Of a DNA stretch of 64,000 bases, positions 10,890-59,689 are shown one piece after another. The stretch is taken from the NCBI GenBank assembly GCA_034780895.1, contig JAUZTB010000062.1:14477471-14541470 (forward strand), in the 5' to 3' direction. Position 1 is the first letter of the stretch. Every line of letters begins with the position of its first letter. A program made the position numbers and the translations under genes. This stretch comes from Rhynchobatus australiae. Taxonomy: Eukaryota. The notes under the pieces were generated by a model. That model was not told the DNA's origin. It was given only the letters and a program-made list of their open reading frames with translations, and did no database searches.

Positions 10890-12366
10890 ACTTGAAAAGT
10901 TCATTGGTTTACCCTTAATTTCTGTCCTGCTCTCAGTGTTACAAGGTTCATCTCTCTCTTCACTTTCTGGATTTCTCTGCCTCCATCTCAGGGGACAGTT
11001 TAGCAACTGACATCCATTACAATCCCTCAACTATCACAACTGTACTTCTTCCTATCCTACTTCCTGAGAGGATTCCATTCATTTTTGCCGTTCCTCTGAC
11101 TCTGCTGCATCTATTCTAATGATGAGACTTTCCATAAAGGTGTTGCTTATATTCCTTTTTTCTTAACCATGGCTTCCCCATATACCATAGTGGACACAGC
11201 CTTTGACTGTATCTCATTTATTTCCTGCATCTTTACTCTTATTCCCTCTTCTCCCAGCCAGAAAATTGGTAAGGTTCCCTAGTTCTCGCCTTCCACGCCA
11301 CCAGCCTTCGTGTTTAATAGATCAGTCTTTGTGATTTCTTTTTCTACAACAAAGTTACACGACCATGCACATCTTTCCCTCTTTTGGCATTCCAAAGGCA
11401 CTGTTCCCTTTGTGACTCACTGGTCTGCTCTTCCATCTTCACCAATCCCTCTCTCAAAACACTTTTCCATGCAACCACACAAGAGGCAACACCTCTTCCA
11501 TCTTCATCAATTCATCTTCACCAATCATCCTTCATCTTTCACCAATCCATCTTTCACCAATTCATCTTCCATCTTCACCAACACCTCTCCCATCTTGTTC
11601 CTTCGCACCATTCAGGGACTGAAACAGTCACTCCAGGTGAAGCAGCAATTCACTTGCAATTTTGATGGACATTCCTGACTTGTCCTCCTCTACAGTATAG
11701 AAACCAAACCCAGACTGAGTGACAGTTTTGCAGATACATCTGCTCATTCCGCATGTGCAACACTGAGCTTCCAGTTTCTTGTCACTTTGATTTTCCATTC
11801 CACTCCCACTCTGCTCCCTGCCTGTTCCAACAAAACCTGAGCAACAGCACCTCCTCTGACACATTGCTGCCTGTGGGACTCAATATTAAATTCAACAGTT
11901 TCACACATCTTACATTTCCTGTTCGGTATCAGAACTGGCCAGTTCGGCTGAAAAACTATCCACCTGTAATATTAAAACATTTTTTTTCTTTCTGTGGGCA
12001 TTTCCTGCTTTCTCCAGTGGGTTTCAGGCTTCAGTAACACCAGTTATCTGCATTTCACAGCTTTGACATTGCTCCTTTGTCTTCCATCTCTCTAACTGTT
12101 GTCATTAACCTAGCAACCAGATAGTTCAGTAAACATTGTGATCACCTGGGCATTCCTAGCTTCACCCTTTGACCTCACCATCCTTCCCCACACTCTCTGC
12201 AACCTAACACCGACTTGTTATCACACCTTCCAAGTTCTAATGAAATGTCCTCAACCTGAAACATAACTTTTTTTTATCTTTTTTCCACAGATGCTGCCTA
12301 ACCTCATGAGTGCTTCCAGCATTTTCTGGTTTTAGATTTCCAGCATTTGCAGTTTTGTGATTTTCA
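10890..12366 (+). mobile_element. Degenerate Penelope-like element (GIY-YIG region plus 3' terminal repeat)
   Basis: TIQGLKQSLQVKQQFTC and LLYSIETKPRLSDSFA (decayed LYIGET..RL..RF). It ends in the GATGCTGCCT..CC..CTGAG..TCCAGCA terminal repeat and splits a CR1 tail (10820-10860 and 12375-12515). Confidence 0.7.
11495..11585. repeat. Imperfect tandem repeat of (CCATCTTCACCAAT)-like units inside the Penelope remnant
   Basis: About 5-6 degenerate copies of catcttcaccaa are visible directly. Confidence 0.75.
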
Positions 12367-15300
12367 ATTATCTCAGGTTGACAGATTGTTGGACCACATC
12401 AAAAGCTGTGGGAATCAGGCAGGAAAGTAAAGTCAACGCCAGGATGAGATCAGCTATGATCTTATTGAATAGCAGAGTAATAGGGTAGTGTTGCTTCTAT
12501 TTTTCATGTTCTCATATCCACAAGTTTCCTTAAAGCATTTGTAATGAATTATTTGAAATATGCAGCAACTGTTTTTGTCCAGGTAAATACAAGAGGCAAT
12601 TTGTGTTCAGCAGCTGGACTCTCACCGAAGCAAATCCCTTAAAGAACTAGTGGCAGTGGCTGAGTGAGCAACAATGGACAGCAAAAATGGGGAAATCTCC
12701 TGCAAACAATATCATAGTTTGTTTATGTCAACATGTGCAAGTGAAAGGGTCTTAAATTTAACATTAACTACTAACTGGCGCAATCGAGCTGACCTTCCAA
12801 TCTGACAGCAATTTTGAGCAGTACAATTCACAAGAAGCAAGATCCTGTGAAGATCAAAGATCCCCTAACCTGCTGAAATTATACGTTTCCTTTCCTTCAA
12901 GTATTATCACTCTCCTTAAATCTGTGTCCATTATTCCCACAGTTCTTTGAATTTATTCTGGATTTTACCATTGCCGTGGCATTGAAATAGGCCTAATAGA
13001 AGTGACATCATTTGTACCTGTGCCCAGAGGGAATGATGCTTTCTGGCTTTCTCTGATTTCTTTGGTTTTGTCAAACATACTTCTCCTTCAGTATCTCTTG
13101 GCAAACTAAAAATGGATCTTTTTTTTGCCAGTGTAATGCTCCGAATCTTTAAGAACTATACGTATAGTTAATGCTTGATTTACAAAAGGGATAAACTTTT
13201 GCTAGGTACAGTGTCATAAATTGAAATGGCTGGGTAAATTCTTTATGAATGTTTCAGAAAAATGTTATTATCAATTTAAGAATAAATTCATTGATGTCCA
13301 AGGGTCAGGGATGGGGAAGGATTCAAAGCTGTATGATGCAAATGAAACCATGCAACCATTTAGGATAGAGGTGAGGTTTAGTGAATGAATGAGGGCATGA
13401 GGAGGGGGTGGGTTTTCCTATTCCAGAAGGAAATCGGGGCTACAGTGTATGTCACATACAGTATACACNNNNNNNNNNCCCACAAGCCCATGTGGCAGTC
13501 AGTATTGGAGAGCATCTTTGAGAGAACCTTTATCAACTCAGAGTGCAGATTGATATGCCAATGTGCAAAAATACAATCTTAACTTCCAGGAGAATTAGTA
13601 GATTGACCGTCACATCATTCTGCCACCTCTAAGGGTAGTAAAAGCACATCATCAGTTCAATGCTTGCAGGTTAAAACCATTTGTGTTGGATTGTTATGTT
13701 TAATAGGAAGAATAACAGGTGAGATAACAACTTGTAAGTTTGGGGGCCATTATCTATACATTTAGTAGTTGCACTGCTTTTGGCAACCAGTGTGGAGAGG
13801 GAATGGAAAAGATCAGGGTATACCCCAAAACTGAAAGGTGATACTGAAGAATGTGCAACAGGTATACTATAGTGCTGATCCAACAGGCTACCACTGGCAT
13901 GTTTAAGATCCTACAGAGTAAACTTGAACTTTCCATAGGAAGAGAAATGCTACATGAAGAAACCAAATTCAGGAGAGGTAGAGGAACTTAAGATCAAATA
14001 GCCAATAATAAGGTGAATAGTGGAAAGAACAATAGAATACTGAAAGAAGTCTTGTTATGTTTCACTGACAACCGTAATGCATCCGATTGTGTGGAGCAGG
14101 CAGACTTCAGAGTTTAGTGAGTAGAAATGAGTGCATAGACCACCTAATTCTTTTAAGGAAACTCTACACTAAGCATGAGGCTATAATGGAACAAAATGAG
14201 GGAAGATTCACTTTGGATTAGGGATGTTCCTTATCATACCATACTTATTTGTACAGAGAGTATATCATGAGTACAAATCAAATACTGCAGATGCTGGACA
14301 TTTGAAATAAAAAAAAGGGCAGTCTATGGAGGGATGAATGAATCAATTTTTTGGGTGGATGATATGACAAAGTACTCCTGCAATGTTTGGAGCTCGTAAA
14401 CAATATGCTGTGTCTAAGAGTACATTGCTAAACATGAGCATACCAACATATACAGGACAGAGAGAGACATCTAAATACTAGTTTAGGTTGGGTTAAAGCT
14501 GAAACACCAACACTGCTTGAACCAAATGACTCACTTTGGATTCTAATTTCCATATAATACAATAGAGTGATGAATAAAGATGCATATTTTGGTAGCCATG
14601 GGACATGGTGCGTTTAAAGAAACTGCAATCCCATACAGAAGAGAAAATGCAGGAGGAAAAGCTTAAAAAGTGTAAAATAAATCTGTGCATTTAATGTGAC
14701 CTTTAAAAGTGACTCATATTTTGTGAATGCAAATTGCAGAGTCTCTGTAATAACATTAGTAAATGGAAACAAACACTATCACTGGCATTTTTCTATATAC
14801 TATTCATTAATGCACGGCAAGAAAAAGTGAATCTCAAACATGTGTTTTTACTGAACGAAAGTCCAAAATGCCAAAAGGATCTTTCCTAATACATGCCTTG
14901 CGTGATGGGGCTGTTGACTCATTGTTGTGTAAGTGGGTGAAAAATGCCAGATGTAGAAAAATCAAATGACAAAGAGACTGGAATATTTTTTTCATTCAGC
15001 TATTTCGTTCCTTTCCAATTTTTTTTTCAGGTATAAGAACTGATTGGCCCAGATTTTATCACTGCCTGGATTCTCCATTGTCCCTCACTATTCTGGTTCA
15101 GATATGGAAGACCATGTTTGCTTACAAAAAGGACCTAATTGGTGAGGCTGTGCATGGTGCCATGACCACATGCTCTGGAACTGCTGAGAAAACCTTAGTC
15201 AAACGGCAAAGGCACTTCCCCAGCTTTGTCATCTGTTAAGACAGCCAAGCTTTTGCAAAACTTGTGAATATCCCTGGGTCTTCTTGATCCCCATGTTTCT

Positions 15301-18556: not shown

Positions 18557-18979
18557 CAGTAATATTTACCAAAAAAATTGCCAGAAGTTGCCCTCACAGA
18601 ATATTCTGCAAGTATCTTCCATACCTACTGCTGGTTATTGTCAAGCTCTTGAAGAACCTTATAATCCACACATAAAGGACAATGTGTGGAACTAGCAGGT
18701 GAAGACCCTGCCAGAAATGTCTATTCAAAATTACCATTTTGTTACTAACATTATGTTTTTTTCACCTTAAATATCTCACTCTAAATTAGGTATGGCTGTA
18801 AATTGGGTTGCACCTATCTTCAGTGTGCCAACACATAGCTGCATACAGGTTTAGCCCCCTCAATAATATGCAAAATGGGTGAAACACAAAGGTACGACAG
18901 TGCTAATTTTACACATGGAAAGAAGTGCCACAACATAACCTGGCAGGCTCCCAATGGGATCAGCCTAAATTCAATGCAG

Positions 18980-19197
18980 ACACAAGAGACTGCAGGTGCG
19001 GGAATCTGGAGCAACAAACAATCTGCTGGCAGAACTCAAAAGGTTGAGTAGCATCTGTGGGAGGAAGGGAATTGTCGACATTTTGGGTCGAAACCCTGCA
19101 GCAGGACTGAGGCAGGGTTTCGACCTGACATGTCGACGATGCCTTTTCTCCCACAGATGCTGCTCGACCTGCTGAGTTCCTCCAGCAGATTGTTGCT
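18980..19197 (-). mobile_element. Penelope-derived fold-back insertion with 15-bp TSD
   Basis: Inverted arms (~19018-19100 and ~19112-19195); flanks CTAAATTCAATGCAG 18965-18979 and CTAAATTCAGTGCAG 19198-19212. Confidence 0.8.
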
Positions 19198-19304
19198 CTA
19201 AATTCAGTGCAGCTGCAGACACTGTGCTGTGTAGCAATCACAGGTGGTGTCAGCCCTTGAAGGCACACTCTCTGCGGCATCAAGGAACAGCAACATAGAC
19301 TAGA

Positions 19305-20010
19305 GAAAAAAAGGACTGCAGATGAAATCTAGATGAAAAACAACAAGATGCTGGAGGAAGTCAGCAGGCCAGGCAGCATCTGTGGAGAAAAGCAGGCGGT
19401 CAACGTTTTGGGTCAGGACCCTTCTTCAGGACTGANNNNNNNNNNNNNNNNNNNNNNNNNNNNNNNNNNNNNNNNNNNNNNNNNNNNNNNNNNNNNNNNN
19501 NNNNNNNNNNNNNNNNNNNNNNNNNNNNNNNNNNNNNNNNNNNNNNNNNNNNNNNNNNNNNNNNNNNNNNNNNNNNNNNNNNNNNNNNNNNNNNNNNNNN
19601 NNNNNNNNNNNNNNNNNNNNNNNNNNNNNNNNNNNNNNNNNNNNNNNNNNNNNNNNNNNNNNNNNNNNNNNNNNNNNNNNNNNNNNNNNNNNNNNNNNNN
19701 NNNNNNNNNNNNNNNNNNNNNNNNNNNNNNNNNNNNNNNNNNNNNNNNNNNNNNNNNNNNNNNNNNNNNNNNNNNNNNNNNNNNNNNNNNNNNNNNNNNN
19801 NNNNNNNNNNNNNNNNNNNNNNNNNNNNNNNNNNNNNNNNNNNNNNNNNNNNNNNNNNNNNNNNNNNNNNNNNNNNNNNNNNNNNNNNNNNNNNNNNNNN
19901 NNNNNNNNNNNNNNNNNNNNNNNNNNNNNNNNNNCTGTGAAACGGTCACCTAGTCTGTGTTTGGTCTCACCAATGTAGAGGAGGCCCCACTTGGAGCACC
20001 GAATGCAATA
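19305..20010 (-). mobile_element. Penelope-like element 3' end (GIY-YIG endonuclease fragment plus terminal repeat), spanning a gap
   Basis: 20010->19935 encodes YCIRCSKWGLLYIGETKHRLGDRFT; the terminal repeat with hammerhead-like motif lies at 19305-19435. Confidence 0.85.
19397..19434 (-). ncRNA. Decayed minimal hammerhead-ribozyme motif
   Basis: CAGTC-CTGAAGA-A-GGGT(CCTG)ACCC-AAAAC-GTT-GACCG; G12 is replaced by A. Confidence 0.6.
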
Positions 20011-21659: not shown

Positions 21660-23530
21660 ATGAATGTACAAATTAGGAGCGGACTGTAGCCACTCAGACT
21701 CTTGCTGTTTACTAAGATCACAGCTCCACCTTACTGTAACCTCCACTCCGCATTCCCATCTAGATACAGTAACCTTTCACCCCATTGCTTATCAACTATT
21801 TATCTACCTCTGTTTTAAAAATATTCAGACTCTGCTTCCACTGCACCTTGACTGAATTCCAAAGACACACAAACTNNNNNNNNNNCACCTTTTTTTAATC
21901 TTAAATGGGCTGCCCCTTATTTTTAAGGTGACCCTAGTTCTAGGTCACCTTCTTTTCCCAATTCTGATGAAGGGTGGCAGAACCGAAACATTGACTATTT
22001 CTCTTTACACGGACGCTGCTGACTTGCTGAGTTTTCCCAGCATTTTCTATTTTTGCTTCAGATTTTCATCATCTGCAGTTTCTTTGATTTTCATCAATCC
22101 CTAGTTCAAGACTTTCACACGATAGGAAACATCCTCTCCACACCTATCATGCCAAGACTTCTCAGGATCATCTATGTTTCAGTCATTTCCCTCTCACACT
22201 TATAATTGGAGCACATACAAGCCTCGCCTGTCCAACCTTTCATCATAAAACAACCCACCCATTCCGGGCCTTAGTCTAGTAAACCCTCTTTGAACTTCTT
22301 CNNNNNNNNNNNNNNNNNNNNNNNNNNNNNNNNNNNNNNNNNNNNNNNNNNNNNNNNNNNNNNNNNNNNNNNNNNNNNNNNNNNNNNNNNNNNNNNNNNN
22401 NAAACTCTCTGGTTTAAATGAGTCGGCAGTGATCTTATTGAATCATACAAAATTCTTTTGGAGCTTGACAGGGTAGATGCATGGATGGTTGTTCCCCTGG
22501 CTGAGGTCTTCTCATTGATCTAGCAATAGCTTAGGTCCAAGCTTTCTCATTGGTCAAATGTTTGGGGGTGGAGTGTGTCACATGTATGACCTTCCTGATT
22601 GGTTCCTTACTGACTTGCATATACACAAACATATGAATTAGGAGCACTAATTAGGAATGGGCCACTTGGCCCCTCAAACCTCTTCCCCTATTTGGTAAGA
22701 TCATTGCTAATGTGATTGTTATGCCAACTCCACATTCTCACCTCCCCGGTAACCTTTCACCGCCTTGTTTATCAAGTAACCTTCTACCTCCACCTTAAGT
22801 CTTCAAGGACTCTCCTTCCACCACCTTTTGAGGAAGAGACTTCCAGACTCACAGCCCTTTGAGGAAGAAAAATGTTTCATCTCTGACCTTGGTCTGGTTC
22901 ATAGATAGAAAAGGTTTAGAGGGATATGGCCAAATGCAGGCAAACGGGACTAGCTGAGGACGATATCTTGGTTAGCATGGATGACTTGGGTTGAAGGGCC
23001 TGTTTCCATGCTGTCTTAAATGGGTGATCCCTTATTTTCAGACAGTGACCCCCGACTTCTCGATTGTCCCACAGTAGGAAACATCCTCTCCATATTCACC
23101 CTGTCATAACCTTCAGGTCTTATGAGTTTCAATCATGTCACCTCTCATTCTTCTAAATGCCAGCAGATACAAGTTGTCCTACCTTTCCTGGTAGGACAAC
23201 CTGCCATTCCAGGTATTAGCTGACAAAACCAGCTCTGGATGGCTTCCGATGCATTAACATCCTTCGTTAAGTATGCAGATCAATACTGTACTGCAGTATT
23301 CACCACTGCCCTATATACTGAAGCATAACCTACTTCTGTATTCGATTCCCCCAGCAACAAATAACATTCTGTTAGCTTTTCTAATTACTTGCTATACATG
23401 CATAGTAGCCTTTTACAAATCATGCACTCATTCAGATCCCTTTACTTTTCAGAGCACTGCAATCTCACCATTTAAATAACAAGCTTTTTAAAATTTTTCC
23501 TGTCCAAATGGACAAATTCATTTTCAATAC
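21660..23530 (-). mobile_element. Cluster of two degenerate CR1 3' ends with nested insertions
   Basis: Related minus-strand segments at 21660-22300 and 22630-23520 (shared GGAAACATCCTCTCCA). A plus-strand CR1 tail lies at ~22900-23015 and a Penelope tail at 21944-22098. Confidence 0.65.
21944..22098 (+). mobile_element. Penelope-derived terminal repeat with hammerhead-like core, 12-bp TSD
   Basis: CTGATGA 21964-21970 and GAAA 21985-21988; flanks CCCTAGTTCTAG 21932-21943 and CCCTAGTTCAAG 22099-22110. Confidence 0.75.
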
Positions 23531-25495: not shown

Positions 25496-25501
25496 TTTAT
25501 T
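25496..25501 (-). terminator. Candidate ARSG polyadenylation signal
   Basis: AATAAA on the minus strand ~60 nt after the stop codon; further candidates lie downstream. Confidence 0.3.
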
Positions 25502-25563
25502 GAAACTTCCAGTCATTTCACCAACTGTCTGGTGAAAACAATAATTAAAATATGAAAAGGGAG

Positions 25564-25841
25564 TCAGGTTATGTTCTCACACCTACACACTACATGCTTT
25601 GGTTGGCAGCATAGAATTACATCTGGATCATGTGAATAATCAGCCAAGGAAGTGTTATCTGTGGAGATATCCTGGAGGATGTTGTTCAGGACTGTCTTAA
25701 CCTGCAGGAACGCAGCATGGTACTCAGGATTAAGAGGATCCAGGGGTTGATGTTCAGCTGTATCGTTCAACAGATTGAAAATCAGAGGTGGGTCATGTTG
25801 CTGTTCTGGCCCCTTTCCACCTTTGCAAGCTTTGGCACCAC
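25564..25841 (-). CDS. ARSG: Arylsulfatase G terminal coding exon
   Basis: cattttag|GT; encodes (G)GAKACKGGKGPEQQHDPPLIFNL...ADYSHDPDVILCCQPKHVVCRCENIT* with the Cys-rich CC..C.C tail; TGA at 25566-25564. Confidence 0.96.
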
Positions 25842-41836: not shown

Positions 41837-41838
<2 letters not shown>

Positions 41839-45736: not shown

Positions 45737-45817
45737 CTTGTTGTGTCTGCCACGTTCCTTCAAATGGACCAACACTTCCAGAAAACTCGCATTTCTCAGA
45801 CCAAGGCCCATTGTCAC
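45737..45817 (-). CDS. ARSG: Arylsulfatase G internal exon (81 nt)
   Basis: ccatatag|GT...CAAG|gtaata; encodes (G)[26 protein letters not shown], with the metal-binding GDNG motif; phase 1 to 1. Confidence 0.95.
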
Positions 45818-48427
45818 CTATATGGGAAAAGAATTTATAAACAATCATACAGAGGTTTGTAAAATTGAAAATGCCAGCCACTAAGAGATATTTATAGAGA
45901 CAGTAAACCTGGGTAGTACATCACAATATGGTAAGATGCAAGCTTCTATATAACTCTTAATGCTTTGACTTTCTAATCTTAGACAAACTTTCAATGGAAA
46001 ACACCAAAGGAAACTAGAAAATTAGAACCATCACAACATCTTATTATTGTGTGAATTTGGATACTTGCCAGTATGAATTGGTGCCATATGCGAATGAGAT
46101 TTTCTAACACCAATCACTGATTTGCTTAAGAAGTGGAACTGTAAAAATCACTGCTGTTTTAACAATATTGTATCTCCAGTCCTAAAAAACTGACAATATA
46201 AGGAGAAGCCTATTAAAGTAAATTGAACAGGGATACCCAATTTGTTGGTACATTTCTGATTGTTTAGTCTTAGTTATAGTGCTAAATCATTGTTAGGCTT
46301 TAACATGGATAGTAATTGATGCTTGGACCTTAATGATGAGGAGATGTTATTTGAAATCTATCATTAACTTATTCATTTTAAATGTTCATCATATTTCCAG
46401 TTTCAATTCTTCTGTAGCTATAATGGAGCTTAGGTTGTGCCCCATATGTTAAAAACATCCACACATCCAAAAGGTGAATGCTTGCAAGAAGAGTAGTTAT
46501 CATAAAGATATTGGTCATCACATCTAAAGTGAAAATCTACTGACCCATGCCTAGATTGTCACTTAGAAAGACTCATATATTACTAGATAACAGGCACAGG
46601 AAAATTCCAACAACTGCATAAATTCCATCTCAAAAATATTACATTTTTGTACAATACTGCTGCTCTTTTTCATCATTCTAAAGATCTGCATTTGGCTAGG
46701 GAAGGAAGATGAATGATTCCCAATCTCAATAAGTCAATATTTTCAGACCAGCTGCTTTTCCATGAGAGAGGAAAACATAATGCACCAGATAGATCTATCG
46801 TGCATTCAGTCCTGATGGACTGACATAGGCAGAAGTGAATAAGCAGCTTTCTAGCCCAGGAAAAATGTCAAAGTCAGAGAGGCAATCAATGGAGTGACTG
46901 GAGGAGAAAACAATATTGTTGGATCTTTTGGGTTATACATAAAAATAATGAAATACACTACAGTTGAACTATACGACATCACTAACAACAAATGTCTTTT
47001 TAAAACAATTGTGGAATTGCTTACAGACTAAAATTAATTCCAATCCCTGCCTAGAAATTTGATCATATAGCCATGTTTATAAGCACAATGCAAAGGAATA
47101 CCAACACTAATGAGAATAAATCATGAAAACTTATTAATTACNNNNNNNNNNNNNNNNNNNNNNNNNNNNNNNNNNNNNNNNNNNNNNNNNNNNNNNNNNN
47201 NNNNNNNNNNNNNNNNNNNNNNNNNNNNNNNNNNNNNNNNNAGAATAAATCATGAAAACTGATTAATTACTTACCACATCCATCTTCACTTATTTGAGGT
47301 ATCACTCTAATCATGGGAAGTTTTCCCTTGATGCCCACTAATTTCAGTTTTACCTGGGCTCCTTGAAGCCATACATAAGACTTTTTTTTGAGTGAATGGA
47401 AGTTCTTTCCCTTATTTTTTTCCAAGGGAAAAATTCTTCATAGACTCTCAGAAATCAAATGGAACAGATCCTTCCTTTGGGCCTGATCCATTAGTGAGAA
47501 TATTTTGAAAAGTCAATATTTTAAAATTATTTTTTCATTTTTCTGGATCTGGGCACCGGTGGCATGACCGGCAGTTATTATCCATCCCAAATTGCCATTG
47601 AGAGGTTGGTGATGAGTAACCTTCTTGAATTATTGTAGTACTGCTGGAAAAGCTATCCCCACACTGTTGTTGAGTATAGAGTTCCAGGATTTGGACCCAG
47701 CAATGATGAAAGGAATGGCAATATATTTCCAAGTTAGGATAGTGTGTAACTTGGAGGGAACCCTGTAACCTGTGCTGCACCCTTGCTTCTGCTACCAAGA
47801 AGGTCACAGGTTTGGAAGGTACTGTTGGAGTAGTTCAAGTGAATAAATGTAGTATATTTTGTAGGTGATATGCACTGCAAACCTTTGTGTTCTGGTTTGG
47901 TGGTGAGAGTGACTGTGCTTGACATCAAGACAGCATGTGAGTATACAATGAAGGAGCCCTGCCAAACCTGAAGTCAGTGGGCATTAAGAGAAACATTCAG
48001 AGTCATACCTCAAACAAAGGAAGATGAATGTGGATGGTGATTAATCAAGTTTTCATGATTTACTCTCAAAAGTATCAGATTCGATTCCATTGAGCTGAAG
48101 AACAGTGCTACAATTAGCAGGCAATGGTAAAGCTCCTTGTTACTGATTACTTCATTACATATCTACCAGAAAATTAACTTCACCCTCACAACAGTTCCAT
48201 ATCCTCAACAGTGAGGAATTCAAAGGTGCATTGAAACAAAAGATGACTTGGAATGTGTTAATTTAAAACACATTCAATAAATAAACAAACAGAGATGACA
48301 CAGGCCAAGACCATTGATGCTGTGCTCCCTCCTTTATCCCCAAACTTCACCAATCACTCCATATGCATATGTCATTCATGAAGTTAGGCCAGAATGATTT
48401 AAGAAAAGACTTGAATGAATATTGAAT

Positions 48428-48562
48428 GAATGGATAGGTACATGGAGCTGAGAAAAATAGAGGGCTATGGGTAAGCCTAGTAGTTTCTAGGGTAGGGACA
48501 TGATTGGCACAGCTTTGTGGGCCAAAGGGCCTGAATTGTGCTGTAGGTTTTCTGTTTCTAAT
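48428..48562 (+). mobile_element. CR1 LINE 3' tail
   Basis: ATGGATAGGTACATGG...AGAGGGCTATGGG...GGGCCAAAGGGCCTGAATTGTGCTGTAGGTTTTCT. Confidence 0.75.
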
Positions 48563-50244
48563 ATAAATCACAAAGCAATAACGACAAAAGAAATTCAGCA
48601 ACTAATGATGTGAAAAAAACTTTTTTGTGTTTTCCTTTTATGTTAGCCCTCAATCTGGCTTGCTGGCCCTAGTACTTCTACGCAGTGTCCCCACTGTGGA
48701 TGCAGCCAAGTAAATGGAAGACTGCTCTTAAACAGTTGACTGCAGGCAGCTCTGGGTCAGCTAGTGACTACAGCACTTGTAATTACCTCAGAATACGTGA
48801 GAGGAGAATTGTTGGCATGCTGGAAGAGGACAGCACATTCCAGCTCCACAATGGCAGTGGAACTCTCCTGGCATACTACAGACCATATATTTGCCATGAG
48901 CAAGATCACACAGCTGCTATTAAAGCCTCCAGACCCATACCACCACGAATGATGACAAGAAGGTACTCCCAGGGATCAGTTCTTATTCTTGGAGAATAGC
49001 CTTCATCCTCAGCAACTTTCCCATGAAAACTTCTCTATTTCAGTTCTCATCTGAGTCCTCTGGTTCAGGACTGAAATGTGACCTCTTTTTTCTTTTCTCC
49101 CTCTCTCTCTCTCTGTCTGGCATGCTAGTTCCCCTATGCCTCTTGCCTAACTGTAGCTTGGTAATATCAGGTGCCTCGATGTGAAACATGTGCTTATGGC
49201 TAAACTTGTTTAACCTCTGGAATGCCACCTTCTGAACTGGTGGTGGACGGAGGGGTGGATGCGGGGTGAAAGGCAACAACATAATCTCTTCCACTCTGCC
49301 CCTTCCTTTGTAGTGGCACTCCTGTCTGGGATGGGTGGTATGTCCTGTATCATTGCAATAAAGATAAGAGCTTAATGCCATTATGTAGATTGGCCAATGT
49401 ACATAGAAATACACAAAGACTATTCATCACTATGATGGAAAGAAGCACGGTAAAGGTTAGTAGATACTCACATATGCACATCACATCAGCTCCAAAAGAG
49501 GTTATGACTCACGTAGCCTCAATACCCTCAGGGGTTAGACCCCCCCTCCTCCATCCTGGTGATCCTTTGGAATGGAAAGGATCTTCCAGTATTTTTTGCA
49601 AAAGGTATGCGTTGCAGACTAATTCATCCAAGGAGAGAACCAAGGGTGAAGTAGAATAGATTTCAAAGTGCGGTATTGACATAGCTGTATTAACTGAATC
49701 GTTGCCACTGCATGTGTAATGTGTGCTTTCAGGGCTTAAGTATGGGGGAGAGAGAGGGAGAGAGAGATGTTGAGATCCAAAGAATGTGACTAGTGCAGCT
49801 TTGTGTGTATTTGTGAGCTCCAATTCAAAGCACCAGGGAATGATATATCTTGAGAGGCCATGGTATTGCTTTATGCATTGTTCCCAAGTGCATGGCAATT
49901 TGCTTGTGGAACAATCTCTGCAGCTATTTTGTGTCACAGGGTCATCAGCTCTGCTGGTACCAATATTGCAGAGCTCATGGCTCCTGCACCGACTACATCT
50001 ATTAGGATAGTTGGATCGATTCAGTAAAACAAAGAACTTGTTCCTTACTGTGCAACAGTTGACCTTGCAGATATTTCACACTGAGAATAGACCTGTAGTA
50101 GTACTGCGTCTTAAGAGCAATTGTTCTTTAACAATAGAACCCTGACATCAATTATCACAGTAATGTTCAGCGGGTGGGCACCTTGAGCCACGAATTATAG
50201 TGTATTGTGCCTTCATAAGACAAAAGTAGCAGTCCACTCTCAAG

Positions 50245-50786
50245 ACACAAGAAATTCTGCAGATACTGGAATCTACACAAAAAGTGCTGGAGGAACTCAG
50301 CAGGTCAGGCAGCATCTATGGAGGGAAATAAACAGTTGACACCCTCTCCTACTGGATTCCTTCTTCTTCAGCCCTTTGTCTCTTCTACCTANNNNNNNNN
50401 NNNNNNNNNNNNNNNNNNNNNNNNNNNNNNNNNNNNNNNNNNNNNNNNNNNNNNNNNNNNNNNNNNNNNNNNNNNNNNNNNNNNNNNNNNNCAGTTGACA
50501 CCCTCTCCTACTGGATTCCTTCTTCTTCAGCCCTTTGTCTCTTCTACCTATCACCTTTCAGCTTATTACGTCTTCCCCCCTTCCCCCACCCAACTTCCCC
50601 ATCTCACCCAGACTCACCTTTCACCTGCCTGCGTGTGCTCCTCCACCTCCCTCCACCTTCTTCTTCTGGCTTCTGCCCTCTTCCTTTCCAGTCCTGATGA
50701 AGAGTCTTGGCCCAAAACGTTGACTGTTTATTTCCATCCATAGATGCTGCCTGACCTGCTGAGTTGCTCCAGCACTTTTTGTGTAT
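50245..50786. mobile_element. Penelope-derived fold-back insertion with 14-bp TSD and hammerhead-like motif
   Basis: Inverted arms ~50274-50340 and ~50720-50786; flanks AGTCCACTCTCAAG 50231-50244 and AGTCCATTCTCAAG 50787-50800. Confidence 0.8.
50689..50726 (+). ncRNA. Decayed minimal hammerhead-ribozyme motif
   Basis: CAGTC-CTGATGA-A-GAGT(CTTG)GCCC-AAAAC-GTT-GACTG; perfect stem I (CAGTC/GACTG), G12 replaced by A. Confidence 0.6.
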
Positions 50787-53395
50787 AGTCCATTCTCAAG
50801 CTTTTCCTATCAAATGCAATCCAACATGCATTTGCATGAAGAGCCAGGTATTGATTACTCAGCTAAAATTATTAGTCCTACTTAGGTGCAATCCAATTTC
50901 TCTGCAGCCACTTCTTCATTATTATCTTTCTTAAGTCCCAAATTCCCAGTTTTTTCTGTTCAGAGACTCTGCCTTCTTTTGTCTCTATATGCCCGTCTCA
51001 ATGCCTTCTGTGTAAGATAAGAAAGTTGTGCTCTTGTGCAATTTCTGTAAATTTTTCAAACTTCTGCAAATTATCTGCTGCACAAGGTACTGCCCCTGCA
51101 ACTACAGCAGCTATTTAAGGAGCTATATCCTCTCTGCCGCAAGATGGAAACTTCTTGTTGAGAGACACCAAAGATCACAGATGCTGCCTGAAATTATTAT
51201 GGTTGGAGAGAGAAGGGTACAATAGCTTTTTTCCATCAAATGGTGCCTTCCCCATCCCACTCTCCCCACCCCTCTTCCCCAACCTCCCACTTCCTCAACC
51301 CATTTCAGAATATAATTGAACCCATGAACACCACCTTGGTATTCCTCTTTTGCATTATTTATTTATTGTGGCAAGTTATAATAATTTTTATGTCTTGCAC
51401 TGTACTGCTGCTGCAAAACAACAAATTTCACTACATATTTGATGATAGTGAAGTAGGTCGCAAATTCAATCAACAACAGAAAAATGAAAGTGTTGTACAA
51501 AAAAAAATACAGGAAGCCATCTAATTTTATATTGTTTTTTTAGACAAACATAAGGCTAGATGACTTGCACAATTAGTTATGCTACTTAAATCCACATAAT
51601 TACAATATTACTTGCATGTTTGAGTGCAAGATGATAAATAATAAGACATCACATATTTGCTACAGGAGGACGCAGGTATTTCTCATCTTGATTCCTTTAG
51701 GAGAGGGCACATTAGATACTGGTTAGGACATCATTTTGACAGCAGGGAAAGGTGGACCTCAAAACATTCCTTTATGTCACAGGTAGGAATATTCCAATGT
51801 TTACTCTGCTTCCTTTAACCATCTGCTCACATAAAACTTTTGATCTGTCACAGACAATGTTGTAGAAACCACTTTGTGGTATTAAAGAACAGCTGAAAGT
51901 TGTGCAACCCAATGTTGGTAATAGCTGTATTTTGGCAACTCCCAAAAATGGCTAAAAGAGGTAATTAGATTCTTTACACTGGAATAGATACTGTATGCAC
52001 TGAACTCCCACCATTAAGTTTCACTGTATTTGACAGAACATAAAATGGGAGGTGGAATGAGGTACGCAGGCAACACAAAGAAAAACTAAAATAAAAATAA
52101 AGACACAAAATGAAAGATCTAAAAATGTCAAACTAGAATATTGTCACACTTTCAAGATTTATAACTGCAAATATTTAAAGTGCAATTCTAAATTATTTTT
52201 TAGTTTTTCAAAAATACTTGANNNNNNNNNNNNNNNNNNNNNNNNNNNNNNNNNNNNNNNNNNNNNNNNNNNNNNNNNNNNNNNNNNNNNNNNNNNNNNN
52301 NNNNNNNNNNNNNNNNNNNNNNNNNNNNNNNNNNNNNNNNNNNNNNNNNNNNNNNNNNNNNNNNNNNNNNNNNNNNNNNNNNNNNNNNNNNNNNNNNNNN
52401 NNNNNNNNNNNNNNNNNNNNNNNNNNNNNNNNNNNNNNNNNNNNNNNNNNNNNNNNNNNNNNNNNNNNNNNNNNAATAGATTTTTGTATCACCTAAAACC
52501 TATGAAAGTGCCAAACAAGGTTTCTTGAGGGAATACCTGTGACGATACTGCCATGATATGATGTAACATCCATTTATTTAATATAATGAAATGCATGCAC
52601 TAACTTTAAAAAACCACAACCTCAGGTCAAGTATGCTACTAAATACGAGAGGCTGATCTGATGGAACTGGGCGACCTTTACTTTTTGTTGAGAAAACTGG
52701 GTAAAGAGTCAAGGAACTTACTGTCCTTTACAAGCAAGACTGAAAAGATTAGAAAGAAATAACATAAAGCAGTAAGAGCAACTTCTCCAATTTGTTACTG
52801 AATAATGACAAAGGCCACCAGTTTTGGACTGGGAATCTATAACAAAAGAAAAGCAGGTACTTATGTGAACAGACAGCAGGTTATTGTGACTGGGATGTTG
52901 CAACAGCTTCTTGACCACGGCAAGGTCTATGAGCTTTGACTTAAATGACAGTAAGGGTATTGGTCTATAGTTATCAAGATTGGACTTTAGTTTCTTTTAG
53001 ATAAGCATAAAATTTGTTTCTTTCCATCACAGCAGGATAGTTTTGGCTGGCAGGAATGTTTACCTACATGACTTAGCAAAACAGTTAGCTTCTTGATGGG
53101 TTTTTGAGAAAATGCATTGTAGCAATAGAAGCCATATTTTGGGAAAAAATTCACTCCCAGTCAATGTGCCAGTGCACAATACAGTTGTGACTGTATGATG
53201 TGTGCTGCCTATGAATTTTGGATCCATTGACGAGTATAATCAGCAATAGCAGTGGCACATGTGTGGGGACAAGCTCTTGCCTACTGGCTCACCTGCCTGA
53301 AGGAGAGAGTGCTAGCAATTATTGGTGGGTTGTAACGAGTCTGCAACCAGTTGTGACACAGAGTTCATTGAAAGTGATAATCTGTTTATCCCTAA

Positions 53396-53542
53396 CAAGA
53401 CAGAAAATGCTGGAAACACTCATCAGTTCAGGCAGCAACTGTGTAAAGAAAAACAGAGTTAATATTTCAAGTTGAAGACTCTTTATCATTACTTGGAAAA
53501 GTGAGAAAGACGCTGCCTGATGTGCTGACTGTTTCCAGCATA
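53396..53542 (-). mobile_element. Older Penelope-derived fold-back insertion
   Basis: Arms ATGCTGGAAACACTCA.CA..TCAGGCAGC and GCTGCCTGA.GTGCTGA.TGTTTCCAGCAT; degenerate TSD TGTTTATCCCTAA / TGTTTACCCCTTAA. Confidence 0.6.
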
Positions 53543-56000
53543 TGTTTACCCCTTAATCTCCTTCTCATATCCCAATTTTCCCTCTTCCCATCACCTCTTG
53601 ATTTACAACCTGTAGATGATATAAGCCCACATCTGTAATCTGAATACCTCCCCTCACTATAATGTTCTCATTTTAAAAGTATTCCAAATTTCACGAGTGC
53701 CACTCTGTCAGAATTGCTGTGGTCACCTGTCAGCTAGTAGCTCAGACTGATGCCACTCGTTGCAAGATAGCGCTGTTCTATGCCAGCCCATGACAGCACA
53801 CAGCTGCTTCTGGTTACCTCCAGGTCTCCTTTACCAAAAGGTCAATCACCTTCTACCAGCTCGGCTGCCATAGTGCATAAAGCAGAAAAGGGAAAGACAC
53901 AAGGAAACCAGGTATATGCAAGGGTGATTAGTTGACAATTTNNNNNNNNNNNNNNNNNNNNNNNNNNNNNNNNNNNNNNNNNNNNNNNNNNNNNNNNNNN
54001 NNNNNNNNNNNNNNNNNNNNNNNNNNNNNNNNNNNNNNNNNTTAGTTGACAATTTTATCTTGAGTAGATGTATAAAAGTATTTAATGTTTTTGATTTGGT
54101 TTGGCTTACTATTCAACAATTTTGGTTATGCAAATGTTGAGCGATCAAAAATAGAGGAGTGGTTAGATATGAACTTTGAAATGGAACAACTTGTTTCTCT
54201 ATTCATTTGTGAGATACGGACAGTGTTATTTAAAGATCATCCTTGATGGCTCTTGAGAAAGTGGTGAGAGGTTACCTTCTCCATCTATCAGAGTGTTTTT
54301 GGTGAAGGTATTTTCACAATGCGGTAGGGTAGGGGGTTGCAGAACTTTGACCTAGTGACAACAAGTTTGTGCAGGTACGTTTTTAAGGACAGGACAATAT
54401 GTGGATACAACTTGTGCCACTGGTGATGCATGCTTGCAGTTACTGCTTTAGTAATTCCAGATAGAGAAGTTGTGGAATTTTCAGAAACTGCTGCAGAAGT
54501 TGTGATGACTTTGGTTATGCATGAAGGTACATACCGCAGCAAACTACACTGATGCCAGAGGGAGTGAACATTCAAGGAGAAGAGTGGGGTGCCTATTAAT
54601 TCAGCAAGTTGTTTTGCTCTAAATCACATCAAGTTTTTTTCAGTGTTGTCAGAGCTGCATTTATTCAGGCAAATGGAGAATATTCCAACTCACTCCCGTC
54701 ATGTCTTCTGGTTGTTTGAAAGGTTTTGGGATGTCAGGAGTTGAGTCGGACAATTTAGAGTATCTGGTCTCTGTTAAACTATTGCAGCCTAAGCCTGAAC
54801 AAAATCCTTCTTTTTCCTTCTCCTCCTCTGCTTTCTATTCTATAGATAAAGACTGTGTAAGGNNNNNNNNNNNNNNNNNNNNNNNNNNNNNNNNNNNNNN
54901 NNNNNNNNNNNNNNNNNNNNNNNNNNNNNNNNNNNNNNNNNNNNNNNNNNNNNNNNNNNNNNTAGATAAAGACTGTGTAAGGCACTCTAGGCAACGACAA
55001 AGCCAAGAGCTCCTCTTTGAAGCATATGCTGCATATCCAAGTTGGTCCAGGTATAGGAAACTATTTCAGGACTACTATGCTGGTTTCCAAAATGTTATGG
55101 GAGAGGTCCAGGAATTTTATTATAAGAGATTGCTGCTCTGGTTGCTGGACCCCTATCGACAGCAGGTTGCAGTGATAACTGCTTTGACGAACCTTCTGGA
55201 TGCATTGTTTCTTAATCCCATGCACATACTACGTGCATTCTCTGAAGTCTTTTGCAAGATAGCACATTTATCAAGAGCCCTAATCCCCTTCCAGTCCTCC
55301 CAAGGTGGACCTGTTTTTTCAACTATTTCCTCTCTTCCTAGTCATGTGGATTGACTTCAATGTCCCCAGTCCTTCTATAGAAAGGACTCAAATATCTTAC
55401 CTTTGTGAAAGCTCCTATTCAGTATAGTGCTTATAACTGCCTTAACTTCCTATCCAATCCCCTACTAACCTGGAAGTAAATACCAGGGGTCAGAGATTCT
55501 GCTACTAAAAGCAGATTTCCTGTGAATACTTCACACGATGGGTGAGCTGGATGGGGAGGCATCAAAATTGGCTTTGCAAAAGGACTGGCATCATCATCTG
55601 CTGATTCTACACGTGAGTGTAATGCACGTGGTACCACTGTATTCAATTTTCCAAGCTGATAACTCAGGCAACAAAAATGGGCTTGCAATTTGCAACAAAA
55701 CTCCAAGTAAATCAATATCCTAGCTCTTAAATTTTTAAACCCACTTAGAAGAGTATATGCATTTTCTACAAAATGGATAAAAGTAAAGGGGAATTTATGT
55801 AACTCCAAGTGTATAATTAGACTGTAATAAAGGAAAGTAGCAATGATGCTGGCATATTAGGGAATGCTGCACGCTAGATAAAATACTGAAACATTGTGCT
55901 ATTACCATGTAAAAATCATATCATTAATAGCTATTAACGTTAATAATGATCAAGATGTTAAATGTATCAGAATGATAAATGTGAATAAAACATTCCATAC

Positions 56001-56197
56001 CAGCAAACCACACTAGTGTGTTATTTTGAAAATCTGCATTAACTTCTTCCAGTATGCGGCCAATTGCGTGGTCCAGCTCTCGTAGGCCATTTCCATATGG
56101 ACCACGTGTAGAGGTGTTAGCAAACTGAGAATTGTACTGTAAAGGTACATGCATATGGGCTGGAGCAAAGTACAAGAAGAATGGATGCATACTCTCC
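56001..56197 (-). CDS. ARSG: Arylsulfatase G internal exon (197 nt)
   Basis: tttttcttag|...GCTG|gtatgg; encodes ESMHPFFLYFAPAHMHVPLQ...GPYGNGLRELDHAIGRIL...NNTLVWFA, with the sulfatase PFFLY and AHMHVP active-site His motifs; phase 2 to 1. Confidence 0.96.
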
Positions 56198-57542
56198 CTA
56201 AGAAAAACAGAAGAGGAAAGTCAACAGGATCATGAGATAAAAATGTTTTTTTTAATGTACAACCTGATAATGCAGCAACTAAGGCCTTGATGACGGAAGC
56301 AATTTGGTAATAGCAGGTTTGCCCAATAGTTAAACCTGTCTTTTTATCTTTCAAACATCAGGTCAAATTCAGCTCAAACTGATGGTACAAAAACATGTTC
56401 AGTTTACAGGTTCCAATACTTCTAACACAAATAGGTTTGGGGATCCTTAGAATATACCTTCGATATAAAACACAGGTCAAATTAAAGGTCATGAGAGGTC
56501 AGGGACTGACCTTTGGAGCTTCCACTCCACATAACTGAAACAGTGGATCCAATGAATAACTGGTCCATACAGATCAGAAATCTATCAAGTGTGATCTGTG
56601 CTCTTCACGAGGCAGAGATTGTGCTGTAATTCTTTGATCCTTGGGTTAAGAAAGGAAAAATCACTTCACCCCATACAATGGTATTTGTGCAAAACATGGA
56701 GAGGCCACCCAATAAAACAAGTCACTTTCATTCTACCCTGGTTCGTGGGGCATTCTTTTTCTACCTTACTAGGCTAGATTATTCATGAGGAAAAATGGGT
56801 GACTAATTACACTACTAACTGCTATTAGTAACATTCAAAAAAGCCATCATATTTACTCTTATTTGTAAACTTCTGTTCAATCCTCCCTGCAATGGTGAAC
56901 TGACCAGTTACAGCATATTATTGTGTAATGTCACATTCTCAAAGAAAACTAAACCAATATAAAGCACACACAAAGCAGCATTAGGATACAGAGTTTGGAT
57001 GTCAGATGGGACCAGGCCCACTTCTAAGTCTGGTGCACTTCTATTCTGGAGCCAAGCTCTTGGATGACACACAAGAGGTAAACAGGCAGCTGTGGAACAC
57101 TACTCCTGCTGGCAGGGGGAGAGGGGGTGGGATGTAGAATTTAGACTAAAATATAATTTAAAAATCAGTTTTATGTTGCAGATGAAATTTTGAGACTAAA
57201 ATAAAACTTTTCCTCACACATTCACTTTCTCTTTTCAATAGTTACTTGTGCCACGTACCGTTTCTGTCCAAGGGCATGGCCACTTCGGATGGCAATGCAT
57301 CCCTCAAAATTACCACCGTCATATTCTATTTTGTGAAGCACCAATGCCAATGACACAGTATCAGAAATATAAAGGTCTGAGTGAGAGATAATTGTCATGT
57401 GTTTGGTAGCTTCATGATTTTTATTTTAATTTTGTGTTAATTGATTACAACCAGGACTAGGATTACACCTTGAAGGTTAGATTTTGGTAAATTGTAGTAT
57501 TAGGTGTTATCTCTCCTGAATAATCGATTGGCTTTCACTCAC

Positions 57543-57680
57543 CTGGCCTTCTGAATGAAATGTAAAACTTTTTCTGTATATCTCTCTGTCAGACTGCTGA
57601 GATTAACAGGTTGTTCTACAATCTTTTGGTTTTCAAGGAGAGGCAGTGCTATATTTCCAGTACATGGATTGACCTTACAG
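57543..57680 (-). CDS. ARSG: Arylsulfatase G internal exon (138 nt)
   Basis: ttttctgcttcag|...GCCAG|gtgagt; encodes (S)[45 protein letters not shown], matching recalled [21 protein letters not shown]; phase 2 to 2. Confidence 0.95.
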
Positions 57681-58249
57681 CTGAAGCAGAAAACACAGTA
57701 AAATATATGTTAATTTGATTTGGGTTTCAAACAGAAATGTTAATGATTCAACTAAAAGATTCTAGAAGACTTGAAAAAAAACTTTTCACCATATAAACTT
57801 TGATGCAATTTCAAGGAACATTTTTACAAAGCCACACAAAGATGTGTTCATCACTTCACTAACAAATACAAGGTATATATAGATTTGATTACAATGATAA
57901 CATTGAACATGCTGTCTCATTAGTGGTAGCCAGTAAGTATGTACATGACTATTTTGGTACAGTAACTGGCATTCTGATAGATTTATGTACTTTGGGAGTA
58001 GGTCGATACTGATGACCACACAAACTCAATGTTTCAATTTAACTTTAGTGGCCCAGTTAAGCTCCTATCTCCTTCACAACTCATTTCTTAATAGTTAAAA
58101 TTTACATTGGATTCCCTGAAATTGGCGAGAACTAAGTTGGCAGTGTGACTCTTCAACTTAGCATTTTCTTTGCAGTCAAGGACTTTTAACTACATTTTAA
58201 CTACACTTTAAATACAAAACATTCATAACCAATGTTCAGTCAGAACTGC

Positions 58250-58850
58250 TGAATAGATGATCCATCTTGGCTTCCCCTGAAATCCCCACCATCACAGAAG
58301 CCAATTCAATTTACTCCACGTGATATCAAGAAATAGCTGAGAGCACTGAATACGGCAAACGCTGAGTCCAGACAGCACCCCCAGCAGAAGGACTGAAGAC
58401 CTGCACTCCAGAACCAACCATATCTCTAACTAAGTAGCATTAGAATGCTGCCATCTAACTAACAATGTGGAAGTTTCCCAGGTGTATCCTGTTCAAAAAA
58501 GCCAGTGCAAATCCAATCTGACTAATTACTGCCCAATTAGTTGACTCTGAATCATCAGCAAAGTGATGGAAGCTCATCAACATGCTATCATTTGACACCT
58601 ACCCAATAATTGGTTCACCGATGTCTTGTTTGGGTTTCACCAAGATCAACCTACTCTAGATTTCATCACAGCCTTTGTCCAAACATGGACCAAATAGATG
58701 AATTCCAGAAGGGAGTTGACAGCAAAGACAGCATTTAACTGAGTGTGGCATAAGGGAGCTTTGTTAAAATTCAGCTCTTTGGGCATCAAAGAGAAAATAG
58801 TCCAGTGGTTGGAGTCGTAACTTGCACAAGTGAAGATGGTTATGACCAAC
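58250..58850 (+). mobile_element. Old CR1-group LINE (family B) RT fragment
   Basis: KTAFN*VWHKGALLK (decayed KAFDRVWH); similar to 9100-9300 and 26240-26650. Confidence 0.6.
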
Positions 58851-59689
58851 TCATGGCATGGGACTCCATTAGGACATCTGATGCACTGTAACCACCTCTC
58901 CCAAGTTTCCCCTCACATCACCAGCAGTCTTTTATGCAGTTTGTCTGTGGATGACGTAGGGCAAGGTTGCTTTAGGTTTCCCACAATTCGGCAATGGATC
59001 TTGGCAGCTCTTGTCAGGTTCCATATCGCAGGGTGTTCACACCCTATCGGTGCTTCAACCCCCTCTTTGGTCATTTCATTTGAAGTTTTTAAGGTAGACA
59101 ATTGTTTTTGAAAGATTAGAGAAGTGAGTGCTATGGGGAGCTGGTATAGAAGAGGAATAGAGAACAGCATAGATCATCCATGATTATATTAAACAGTGGG
59201 CCAGATTTGGGGGGAGGGGTGGCCTACTCTTGCTCCTATTTTCTTGTGTTCATGAGATTTTTAGGCAAAATGATTGGTCATTAGCAATATGTGCACAGAT
59301 TACTTAGTGCACCAAAATAGTGGAAATCTAATTTCAAGGTAAAGGTCTCAGTTTGCTCCCTCATCTGGAAAAGGACACCACTTATGCTGCTGTACTGGAA
59401 TATCCAATTCTCATGCTCAAGTTGCTGCAGTAAAACTTTAATACACAAACTTCTGAGTCAAAGGTGAGAATGTTACCAATTGAACCAGAGCTGATTACAA
59501 GATTTGACAAAGTTCTGATGAAAGGTCAATATGAAATNNNNNNNNNNNNNNNNNNNNNNNNNNNNNNNTGACCTGCTGAATGTTTCTAGCATTTTCTGAT
59601 TTTATTTCAATATTTCCAGCATCTACAGGGGTTTTTGTTTTTCACTGACTGCTAGATCTACTGTGTTTTTAATCAGAGTGACAGATATT

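What the first reader, a model, noticed from the sequence alone, without database searches (positions are those of the whole stretch)
12230..59540. Dispersed family of minimal hammerhead-ribozyme motifs in Penelope-like terminal repeats
Seen: a recurring ~38-nt motif that reconstructs to CAGTC-CTGA(T/A)GA-A-GGGT(N4)ACCC-GAAAC-GTC-GACTG. Copies lie at 19397-19434(-), 50689-50726(+), 21959-21997(+), 19072-19109(-), 19107-19139(+, partial), 12232-12270(+) and 59511-59537(+, partial), each beside the same GATGCTGCCTGACCTGCTGAG..CTCCAGC repeat. Established: the hammerhead core is CUGANGA/stem II/GAAA/NUH, and Penelope-like elements carry minimal type I hammerheads whose palindromic stem III needs dimerisation. 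Inference: stem III here is reduced to the loopless palindrome ACGT and there is an extra A after the CUGANGA box. Individual copies look inactivated largely by CpG decay (CGAAA>CAAAA, ACGT>ACAT, GTCG>GTTG). About seven copies in 64 kb implies a very large genome-wide family, and some sit inside ARSG introns.
Basis: partly seen in the sequence, partly recalled or inferred. Interest (0 to 1): 0.72.

Follow-up and report, generated by a model that had tools for sequence, protein, structure and literature searches.

The report
Decayed Penelope hammerhead stumps, variant-core lineages
These short repeats are worn end-pieces of a Penelope-type jumping gene carrying an already described miniature self-cutting RNA motif; none of the seven copies here is intact, so they are likely inert, and two abundant lineages spread with an altered catalytic core, which suggests the jumping gene may not need its own cutting to spread.

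Summary
Real, but a known kind. All seven copies are at the stated places. The motif is the minimal, helix-III-less type I hammerhead of Penelope-like element (PLE) terminal repeats. Cervera and De la Pena 2014 already describe the loopless palindrome and the extra nucleotide after CUGANGA. In this 2.23-Gb genome the repeat lies about 300 nt behind RT and GIY-YIG remnants of Neptune/Nematis type. One exact intact form has 312 matches, control 0; about 2x10^5 core-bearing copies are extrapolated. CpG decay is symmetric (1148 CA, 1083 TG, 1390 CG), and 2 of 78 sampled copies are intact. Corrections: the seven come from four subfamilies, some apparent decay is inherited, and only two lie in the sulfatase (ARSG) introns, both antisense. 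Extras: lineages with U4A (2194 matches, control 62) and A9C (2185, control 129) cores amplified. Copy 5' ends cluster at the front of helix I (28 of 64), not at the cut site (1 of 64). The scan noted this family on other DNA many times (29 notes), including the 5' clustering and another core variant. Cleavage is untested.

The parts
11601..11735 (+). Decayed linker/GIY-YIG endonuclease remnant of the PLE, upstream of the 12232 copy
   Evidence: tblastn with a genomic EN piece, E 9e-6; translation
12226..12362 (+). Old-subfamily pLTR end: dead hammerhead (G5A, broken helices) plus tail
18965..19110 (-). A9C-subfamily stump, left arm of a head-to-head fold-back; core further broken (A6C, G12A)
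   Evidence: the pair is predicted to fold into one long hairpin, z -18.6
19107..19223 (+). A9C-subfamily stump, right (inverted, 5'-truncated) arm; A14C, helix III broken
19315..19435 (-). CUGAAGA/GUU-subfamily pLTR end: hammerhead with G12A plus tail; upstream part is N
19939..20010 (-). GIY-YIG endonuclease fragment (Cys-x2-Trp between the boxes), about 500 nt upstream of the 19397 copy on the same strand, across an N stretch
   Evidence: (Pfam GIY-YIG E 0.037, below cut-off)
21953..22086 (+). Old-subfamily pLTR end: core letters present, but helix III non-palindromic and stems mismatched
50234..50340 (-). Inverted tail piece abutting the 50689 element
50547..50790 (+). Canonical-subfamily pLTR (3' UTR, hammerhead 50689-50726 with G12A and G10.2A, tail); intronic, antisense to the sulfatase gene
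53349..53498 (-).
59511..59648 (+). Old-subfamily-like stump interrupted by N; in the intron between exons 57542-57680 and 61834-61946, antisense
25351..61946 (-). Host sulfatase gene (the name ARSG is recalled, not shown by a call). Exons seen: 25351-25839, 29326-29417, 40155-40276, 40880-40990, 55999-56196, 57542-57680, 61834-61946
   Evidence: Pfam Sulfatase E 1.5e-9 and Sulfatase_C E 4e-17; spliced contig of a relative, with CT..AC joints shown for the four 3' exons

Best explanation
The repeats are 5'-truncated end-pieces of a Penelope-like retrotransposon, likely of the Neptune clade, whose terminal repeat carries a minimal type I hammerhead motif, and the copies in this window are decayed and likely inert. 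Shown: the order RT - zinc-finger linker - GIY-YIG - about 300 nt - hammerhead - tail; partial-tandem and inverted arrangements; several subfamilies; neutral CpG decay of the core. Inferred from published PLE work: reverse transcription starts inside the tail and runs through the ribozyme. The motif could cut only as a dimer (enzyme half of one copy, ACGUC/GAC half of another) or with protein help. Inferred here: most insertions were copied from RNA not cut at this site, and full self-cleavage by a lineage's own core was probably not required for spread.
For: Anatomy matches the published consensus NNN CUGANGAH G..C GAAAN-palindrome-NUH NNN position by position. RT motifs (DKG, GVAMGT, RYIDD; motif names recalled), a C-x4-C-x2-C linker and a CCHH-type GIY-YIG precede the repeat on the same strand in L087, L094, L099, L104, L120 and L130. 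L290 has 3'UTR-[N]-tail running into the N-terminal/RT region, with a second repeat downstream; L283 has an inverted pLTR directly before N-term/RT/EN. Decay at C11.1pG12 is symmetric: 1148 CA, 1083 TG, 1390 CG, p=0.18. 2 of 78 anchored sample copies are intact; 112 covered the region and 34 could not be anchored. 5' ends lie within -11..+4 of C3 in 57 of 133 copies and near the cut site in 3 of 133; in young-type copies 28 and 1 of 64. U4A and A9C lineages number 2194 and 2185 exact matches against 62 and 129 for control substitutions and 3621 canonical. In the anole PLE, catalytic mutants insert normally in vitro (PMC11167929).
Against: No cleavage assay and no raw RNA reads. Pfam hits for RT (E 0.025) and GIY-YIG (E 0.037) are below the curated cut-offs, and four other pieces gave no relevant hit, so the protein assignment rests on motifs. 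Neptune versus Nematis was not tested by a tree. No single clean pLTR-ORF-pLTR copy was seen; the ribozyme place of L290 reads N. The youngest subfamilies (about 7% tail divergence) have canonical cores and the oldest (17%) also does, which argues that the core is under selection in most master elements. Religated circular RNA would also leave an uncut site, so the end footprint does not exclude cleavage.
Confidence: 0.85

Rival explanations
1. Cleavage is needed, but the U4A and A9C lineages are substrate-only passengers: they keep the ACGUC/GAC half and are cut in heterodimers by the enzyme half of canonical-core RNAs.
For: Both changes lie in the enzyme half. A15.1-C17 and GAC stay in the majority of these clusters and remain complementary to the canonical 5' arm. 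In the dimer topology one copy's core cuts the other copy.
Against: Needs trans pairing of two different RNAs through a 4-bp helix III and a 3-5-bp helix I. In RNAcofold the hammerhead dimer is 14-20 kcal/mol above the dimer MFE for the three genomic copies with a full helix I (two intact, one U4A). Same-strand neighbours within 600 nt are rarer than opposite-strand ones, 10 against 23.
Confidence: 0.15
2. U4A and A9C are active natural core variants. A9C could be a register shift, with C bulged after G8 and the next A serving as A9; activity could be rescued by protein.
For: All other core letters stay in the majority in these clusters. Natural active core variants exist, and U4C supports viroid infectivity (PMC3088659). 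The anole PLE ribozyme is protein-assisted.
Against: In a pairwise scan of a type III hammerhead, all single and double mutants in the CUGA-turn region except the C3/G8 swap had low activity (PMC9901934 passage). None of the 56 representative motifs of Fig. S3 has U4A or A9C, though that set is descriptor-biased.
Confidence: 0.2
3. The intronic copies cut or regulate the host (ARSG) pre-mRNA.
For: Two of the seven, plus 53505, lie in introns of the sulfatase gene.
Against: 50689 and 59511 are antisense to the gene. The only sense core-spanning copy found (53505) has C3A and U4A. No copy has an intact partner, and the 19072/19107 pair is predicted to sequester itself in a hairpin.
Confidence: 0.03
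4. The short pieces are a separate non-autonomous family (retrozyme- or SINE-like) rather than truncated PLE ends.
For: 42 of 83 pattern-selected copies not bounded by N start at the front of helix I or at an inverted junction. Few variant copies have EN homology upstream: U4A 4 of 37, A9C 3 of 36. PLE-derived tandem retrozymes are described, one chondrichthyan included (bioRxiv 2026.07.22.740005).
Against: No tandem arrays were seen here. Each class has some copies joined to 3'UTR and EN. 5' ends grade from the motif into the ORF, and the tail continues into the ORF 5' region.
Confidence: 0.12

Closest known systems
Minimal hammerheads (min-HHR) of metazoan PLE pLTRs, Cervera and De la Pena 2014, PMC4209133 (read: parts 1-3 of 4 of the text, parts 1-2 of 3 of the supplementary PDF)
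   Same: Type I; no helix III loop; palindromic 15.2-16.2; extra nucleotide after A9; G10.1-C11.1; U-rich 5' flank; mostly solo 5'-truncated copies; opposite-strand pairs; reported in fish Xena, Poseidon and Neptune elements.
   Different: No cartilaginous fish among its 40 species (six search terms gave 0 hits in the readable supplement). Its counts are 4,000-9,000 descriptor hits per vertebrate genome, not comparable with my estimate of about 2x10^5 mostly decayed copies. No U4A or A9C core in Fig. S3.
Neptune/Nematis EN+ Penelope-like elements, Craig et al. 2021, PMC8557442 (read: passages)
   Same: C-terminal GIY-YIG with CCHH motif, CX2-5CxxC linker finger, DKG motif, pLTR by partial tandem, adjacent inverted 5'-truncated copy, tail.
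   Different: Clade not fixed by phylogeny here. Neptune is preferred because a 2026 preprint detected only Neptune and Poseidon in vertebrates and Poseidon lacks the linker finger.
Poseidon element PAc of Anolis, Frangieh et al. 2024, PMC11167929 (read: passages and second half of the main text)
   Same: Hammerhead in the pLTR next to the ORF 5' end; internal RT start giving a tail; uncut RNA as template; no ends at the cut site.
   Different: Different clade, and tested biochemically; nothing here was.
Small dimer-cleaving PLE hammerheads, Lunse et al. 2017 (paper not held; seen only as a title and through the review PMC6765202, passages)
   Same: Helix-III-less variants proposed to cleave as dimers.
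   Different: Could not check whether it lists shark or ray examples or these core variants.
Animal non-LTR retrozymes, bioRxiv 10.64898/2026.07.22.740005 (read: parts 1-3 of 5; supplements closed)
   Same: pLTR-derived, type I hammerhead, found in one chondrichthyan.
   Different: Defined as tandem repeats; the copies here are dispersed or inverted.

Membership tests
min-HHR (type I) of metazoan PLEs | Core CUGANGA ... GAAA ... UH in the subfamily majority | tested here: met
   Met in canonical, CUGAAGA and old clusters; not met in the U4A and A9C clusters (anchoring favours core matches)
min-HHR (type I) of metazoan PLEs | No helix III loop, palindromic 15.2-16.2 | tested here: met
   CG with symmetric CA/TG decay products in all six clusters
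min-HHR (type I) of metazoan PLEs | Extra nucleotide between 9 and 10.1; G10.1-C11.1 pair | tested here: met
   Extra A in all clusters; G-C in five clusters, G-U (19 of 38) or A-U (8 of 38) in the old one
min-HHR (type I) of metazoan PLEs | Helices I and II supported by covariation | tested here: inconclusive
   One two-sided change (C2.1-G1.1 against U2.1-A1.1, 21 of 38) and two wobble changes; outer helix I pairs are lost in three clusters
min-HHR (type I) of metazoan PLEs | Self-cleavage after H17 as dimer or with protein | not testable with these tools
   Only contigs were offered, no raw reads
EN+ Penelope-like element | RT followed by C-terminal GIY-YIG with CCHH motif | tested here: met
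   Motifs in order in several loci; Pfam hits below cut-off
EN+ Penelope-like element | pLTR by partial tandem, adjacent inverted truncated copy, tail | tested here: met
   L290, L296, L283; window 18965-19223 and 50234-50790
Neptune (or Nematis) clade | CX2-5CxxC finger in the RT-EN linker | tested here: met
   C-x4-C-x2-C in L040, L104, L116, L120, L130
Neptune (or Nematis) clade | RT phylogeny groups with Neptune references | not tested
Non-LTR retrozyme | Tandem monomers each with a hammerhead | tested here: not met
   No tandem family of this repeat in the window; 10 same-strand neighbour pairs among 135 hits, no arrays
Rfam hammerhead families | Covariance model match | tested here: not met
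   0 of 14 matches at E<=10 in the window; the window copies are decayed and intact copies were not scanned

The most novel reading that the evidence does not exclude
Whole PLE lineages with crippled hammerhead cores (U4A, A9C) made about half of the sampled copies: 54 of 112 fall in the three clusters dominated by these variants. They were copied from RNA that begins at the front edge of helix I and is uncut at the scissile bond. The motif would then serve PLEs chiefly as a 5'-end or protein-binding signal, with cleavage optional or supplied in trans by canonical partners, a genome-scale natural test of what the PLE ribozyme is for.
Probability: 0.35. Interest if true: 0.55.

Novelty: new member of a known kind. 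Interest (0 to 1): 0.3.

Why it matters
What remains useful is the open question of what PLE hammerheads do. This genome offers thousands of naturally amplified U4A and A9C cores beside canonical ones, plus a sharp 5'-end footprint. Together these make 'is self-cleavage needed for PLE spread, and can partners supply it in trans' testable with a few short transcripts. Three paper searches found no paper devoted to these motifs in sharks or rays (1 review with an incidental word; 1 preprint; 0). One search for U4A/A9C hammerheads returned an unrelated paper. Lunse 2017 and the preprint's supplements could not be seen and may bear on this.

Tried and rejected
(1) Excess G12A as selection against active ribozymes: 21 A against 3 T among 37 copies was query bias; genome counts are symmetric. 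(2) A 3' splice site as cause of the 5' pile-up: a pyrimidine tract plus CAG precedes the core, but truncated copies keep the A at -4 (22 of 32) and show no shared upstream exon; rejected. (3) Rfam: no hammerhead hit. (4) The bare core descriptor has no power in the window. (5) Cofolding: helices I and II appear in the monomer MFE of intact copies, but so does an inactive GAUG/CGUC pairing, and the hammerhead dimer is not the MFE; nearest-neighbour folding cannot score the core, so this is no verdict. (6) RNA: no RNA holder listed, contigs only; used only to place exons; depth over repeats not interpreted. (7) L119 as a tandem element: the upstream repeat belongs to a separate insertion about 1.7 kb away. 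(8) ORF start at the ATG after the ribozyme: frames differ between subfamilies on inspection; not pursued. (9) Atlas naming of the sulfatase exon and the PLE protein gave no result. (10) Lunse 2017 not held.
Full report
Observation. The seven stretches are present as stated. A profile of the repeat finds 11 pieces in the window and none in 20 shuffled windows. The window lies in a 2.23-Gb assembly with strong CpG depletion (o/e 0.19). A shark or ray is my inference from recalled repeat types and the scan's earlier notes; no call names the organism. In hammerhead numbering the best-kept family reads: helix I 5' arm, CUGAUGA, one extra A, a 4-bp helix II with a 4-nt loop, GAAA, C, G, U, C17, helix I 3' arm. 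One exact intact form has 312 genomic matches, control 0. Rfam gives no hammerhead match in the window.

What carries it. An intact copy (L040) follows a reading frame with a C-x4-C-x2-C finger and a GIY-YIG domain with two cysteines between the boxes and two later histidines. Searching with it gave 152 scored matches from 53,961 candidates. In fetched loci the order is RT motifs, linker, endonuclease, about 300 nt, ribozyme, tail, all on one strand. L290 shows 3'UTR, an N stretch where the ribozyme should be, the tail, then the N-terminal and RT region, then a second repeat. L283 and L296 have an inverted repeat in front of the same 5' region. These are the partial-tandem and inverted forms described for endonuclease-bearing PLEs, and the linker finger marks Neptune or Nematis (PMC8557442, passages). 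In the window, endonuclease remnants lie upstream of the 12232 and 19397 copies. Pfam support is weak: GIY-YIG E 0.037 and RVT_1 E 0.025, both under cut-off, and five of seven pieces gave no relevant hit.

Abundance and decay. In 88 evenly spaced 10-kb pieces from large contigs (746,553 non-N bases) there are 135 hits, 69 spanning the core. That extrapolates to 3.4-4.0x10^5 pieces and 1.8-2.1x10^5 cores; small contigs were not sampled. At the CpG formed by C11.1 and G12, exact genome counts are 1390 CG, 1148 CA and 1083 TG, symmetric as neutral deamination predicts (p=0.18). In the unbiased set (the 88 pieces, 10 neighbouring pieces and the window) 112 copies covered the region, 78 could be anchored and 2 passed an intact test. 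No anchored window copy passed.

Subfamilies. Clustering 159 copies (that set plus endonuclease-selected loci) gave six groups. Old (54 copies, tail divergence 17%): canonical core, U17, 5-nt loop, U2.1-A1.1 in 21 of 38 anchored copies where the others have C-G. This is the one two-sided compensatory change found. Two A9C groups (22 and 12 copies, 12% and 17%): C at position 9 in 13 of 14 and 6 of 6. A CUGAAGA group (10 copies, 7%) with ancestral U17 (8 of 9). The canonical group (33 copies, 7.5%). A U4A-rich group (28 copies, 9%): A at position 4 in 12 of 20 (divergences). Genome-wide, U4A has 2194 exact matches against 62 for U4G, and A9C has 2185 against 129 for A9U (the patterns differ slightly in degeneracy from the three canonical ones). 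The variant copies have their own flanking signatures and unrelated insertion sites. A few retain endonuclease homology upstream: 4 of 37 U4A, 3 of 36 A9C, 2 of 19 old, and 27 of 80 canonical, the last inflated by selection. So these cores were inherited from master elements. The seven copies come from four groups: 50689 canonical; 19397 CUGAAGA by its sequence; 19072 and 19107 A9C; 12232 and 21959 old, with 59511 resembling old.

Ends. Among 133 sample copies with a usable 5' boundary, 57 start within -11..+4 of C3 and 3 near the cut site at +27. Among 64 young-type copies, for which the profile is most reliable, the numbers are 28 and 1 (p=1.5e-5). For old copies the boundary may be an artefact of upstream divergence. 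Of 90 pattern-selected copies, 41 continue into the pyrimidine-rich upstream part, 10 end at an inverted junction, 32 end in unrelated flank and 7 are bounded by N. The 32 mostly keep A at -4 (22) and half keep C at -5 (16), so the edge is the front of helix I. A transcription start or an RT stop there are both possible; neither is shown.

Host gene. Pfam places sulfatase domains on the minus strand. A spliced contig from a relative joins exons from 61834-61946 down to 25351-25839. The name ARSG is recalled. Only 50689 and 59511 of the seven are intronic and both are antisense; a further sense copy at 53505 is dead. The 19072/19107 pair is predicted to form one long hairpin (z -18.6).

Mechanism. 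Shown: identity, architecture, decay, subfamily cores and end positions. Inferred: RT initiates in the tail and copies through the motif, as in the anole element, where the ribozyme needs protein, catalytic mutants still insert and uncut RNA is the template (PMC11167929). Published min-HHRs do not cleave as monomers and only weakly as dimers. Mutations in the CUGA turn gave low activity in a type III scan (PMC9901934 passage), while rare active core variants exist (PMC3088659). The most likely reading is a known PLE ribozyme, inert in these copies, whose full activity was probably not required for each lineage to spread. Against this, the youngest and the oldest groups have canonical cores, and religated circles would hide cleavage.

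Comparison and verdict. No cartilaginous fish is in their list, and Lunse 2017 could not be read. The scan holds 29 notes on this family in at least 16 genomes, three in this genome, with the 5' clustering and an A6C lineage in a ray already noted. A word search for U4A and A9C found no note. I had seen the variants and the clustering before these look-ups. Verdict: real, a new member of a known kind, interest 0.3; the variant-core lineages are the part worth a bench test.

Noticed in passing
window 15687-16005 (-): A third, frameshifted linker/GIY-YIG remnant of the same PLE type with no ribozyme or tail detected downstream.
   Followed up: partly
window 50333-50391 and 50492-50550: A 59-nt exact duplicate on both sides of a 100-N stretch, probably a scaffolding overlap; the inverted tail at 50234-50340 and the 50689 element are likely one insertion.
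   Followed up: partly
window 18965-19223: Near-perfect fold-back of two A9C stumps that would give about 110 bp of double-stranded RNA if transcribed; the weak microRNA-family Rfam matches come from this hairpin.
   Followed up: partly
all subfamilies, just 3' of the cut site: A second pyrimidine tract with CAG or TAG followed by ATG lies about 20 nt behind C17 and looks like a splice acceptor before a start codon; the tail behind it holds an inverted ATGCTG/CAGCA pair. Function not tested.
   Followed up: no
L059 and L235: Two truncated copies of different subfamilies share the same 10-nt 5' flank, hinting at insertion into another repeat or microhomology-guided joining.
   Followed up: no
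window 16376-16793, 41939-42360, 63527-63955; 9130-9223, 26250-26635, 58433-58844; 31700-32940: Other dispersed repeat families; some translate to RT-like (LINE-type, recalled) fragments.
   Followed up: no
window 42000-55999 (-): The spliced contig implies one more exon of about 77 nt between exons 40880-40990 and 55999-56196 that was not placed.
   Followed up: no
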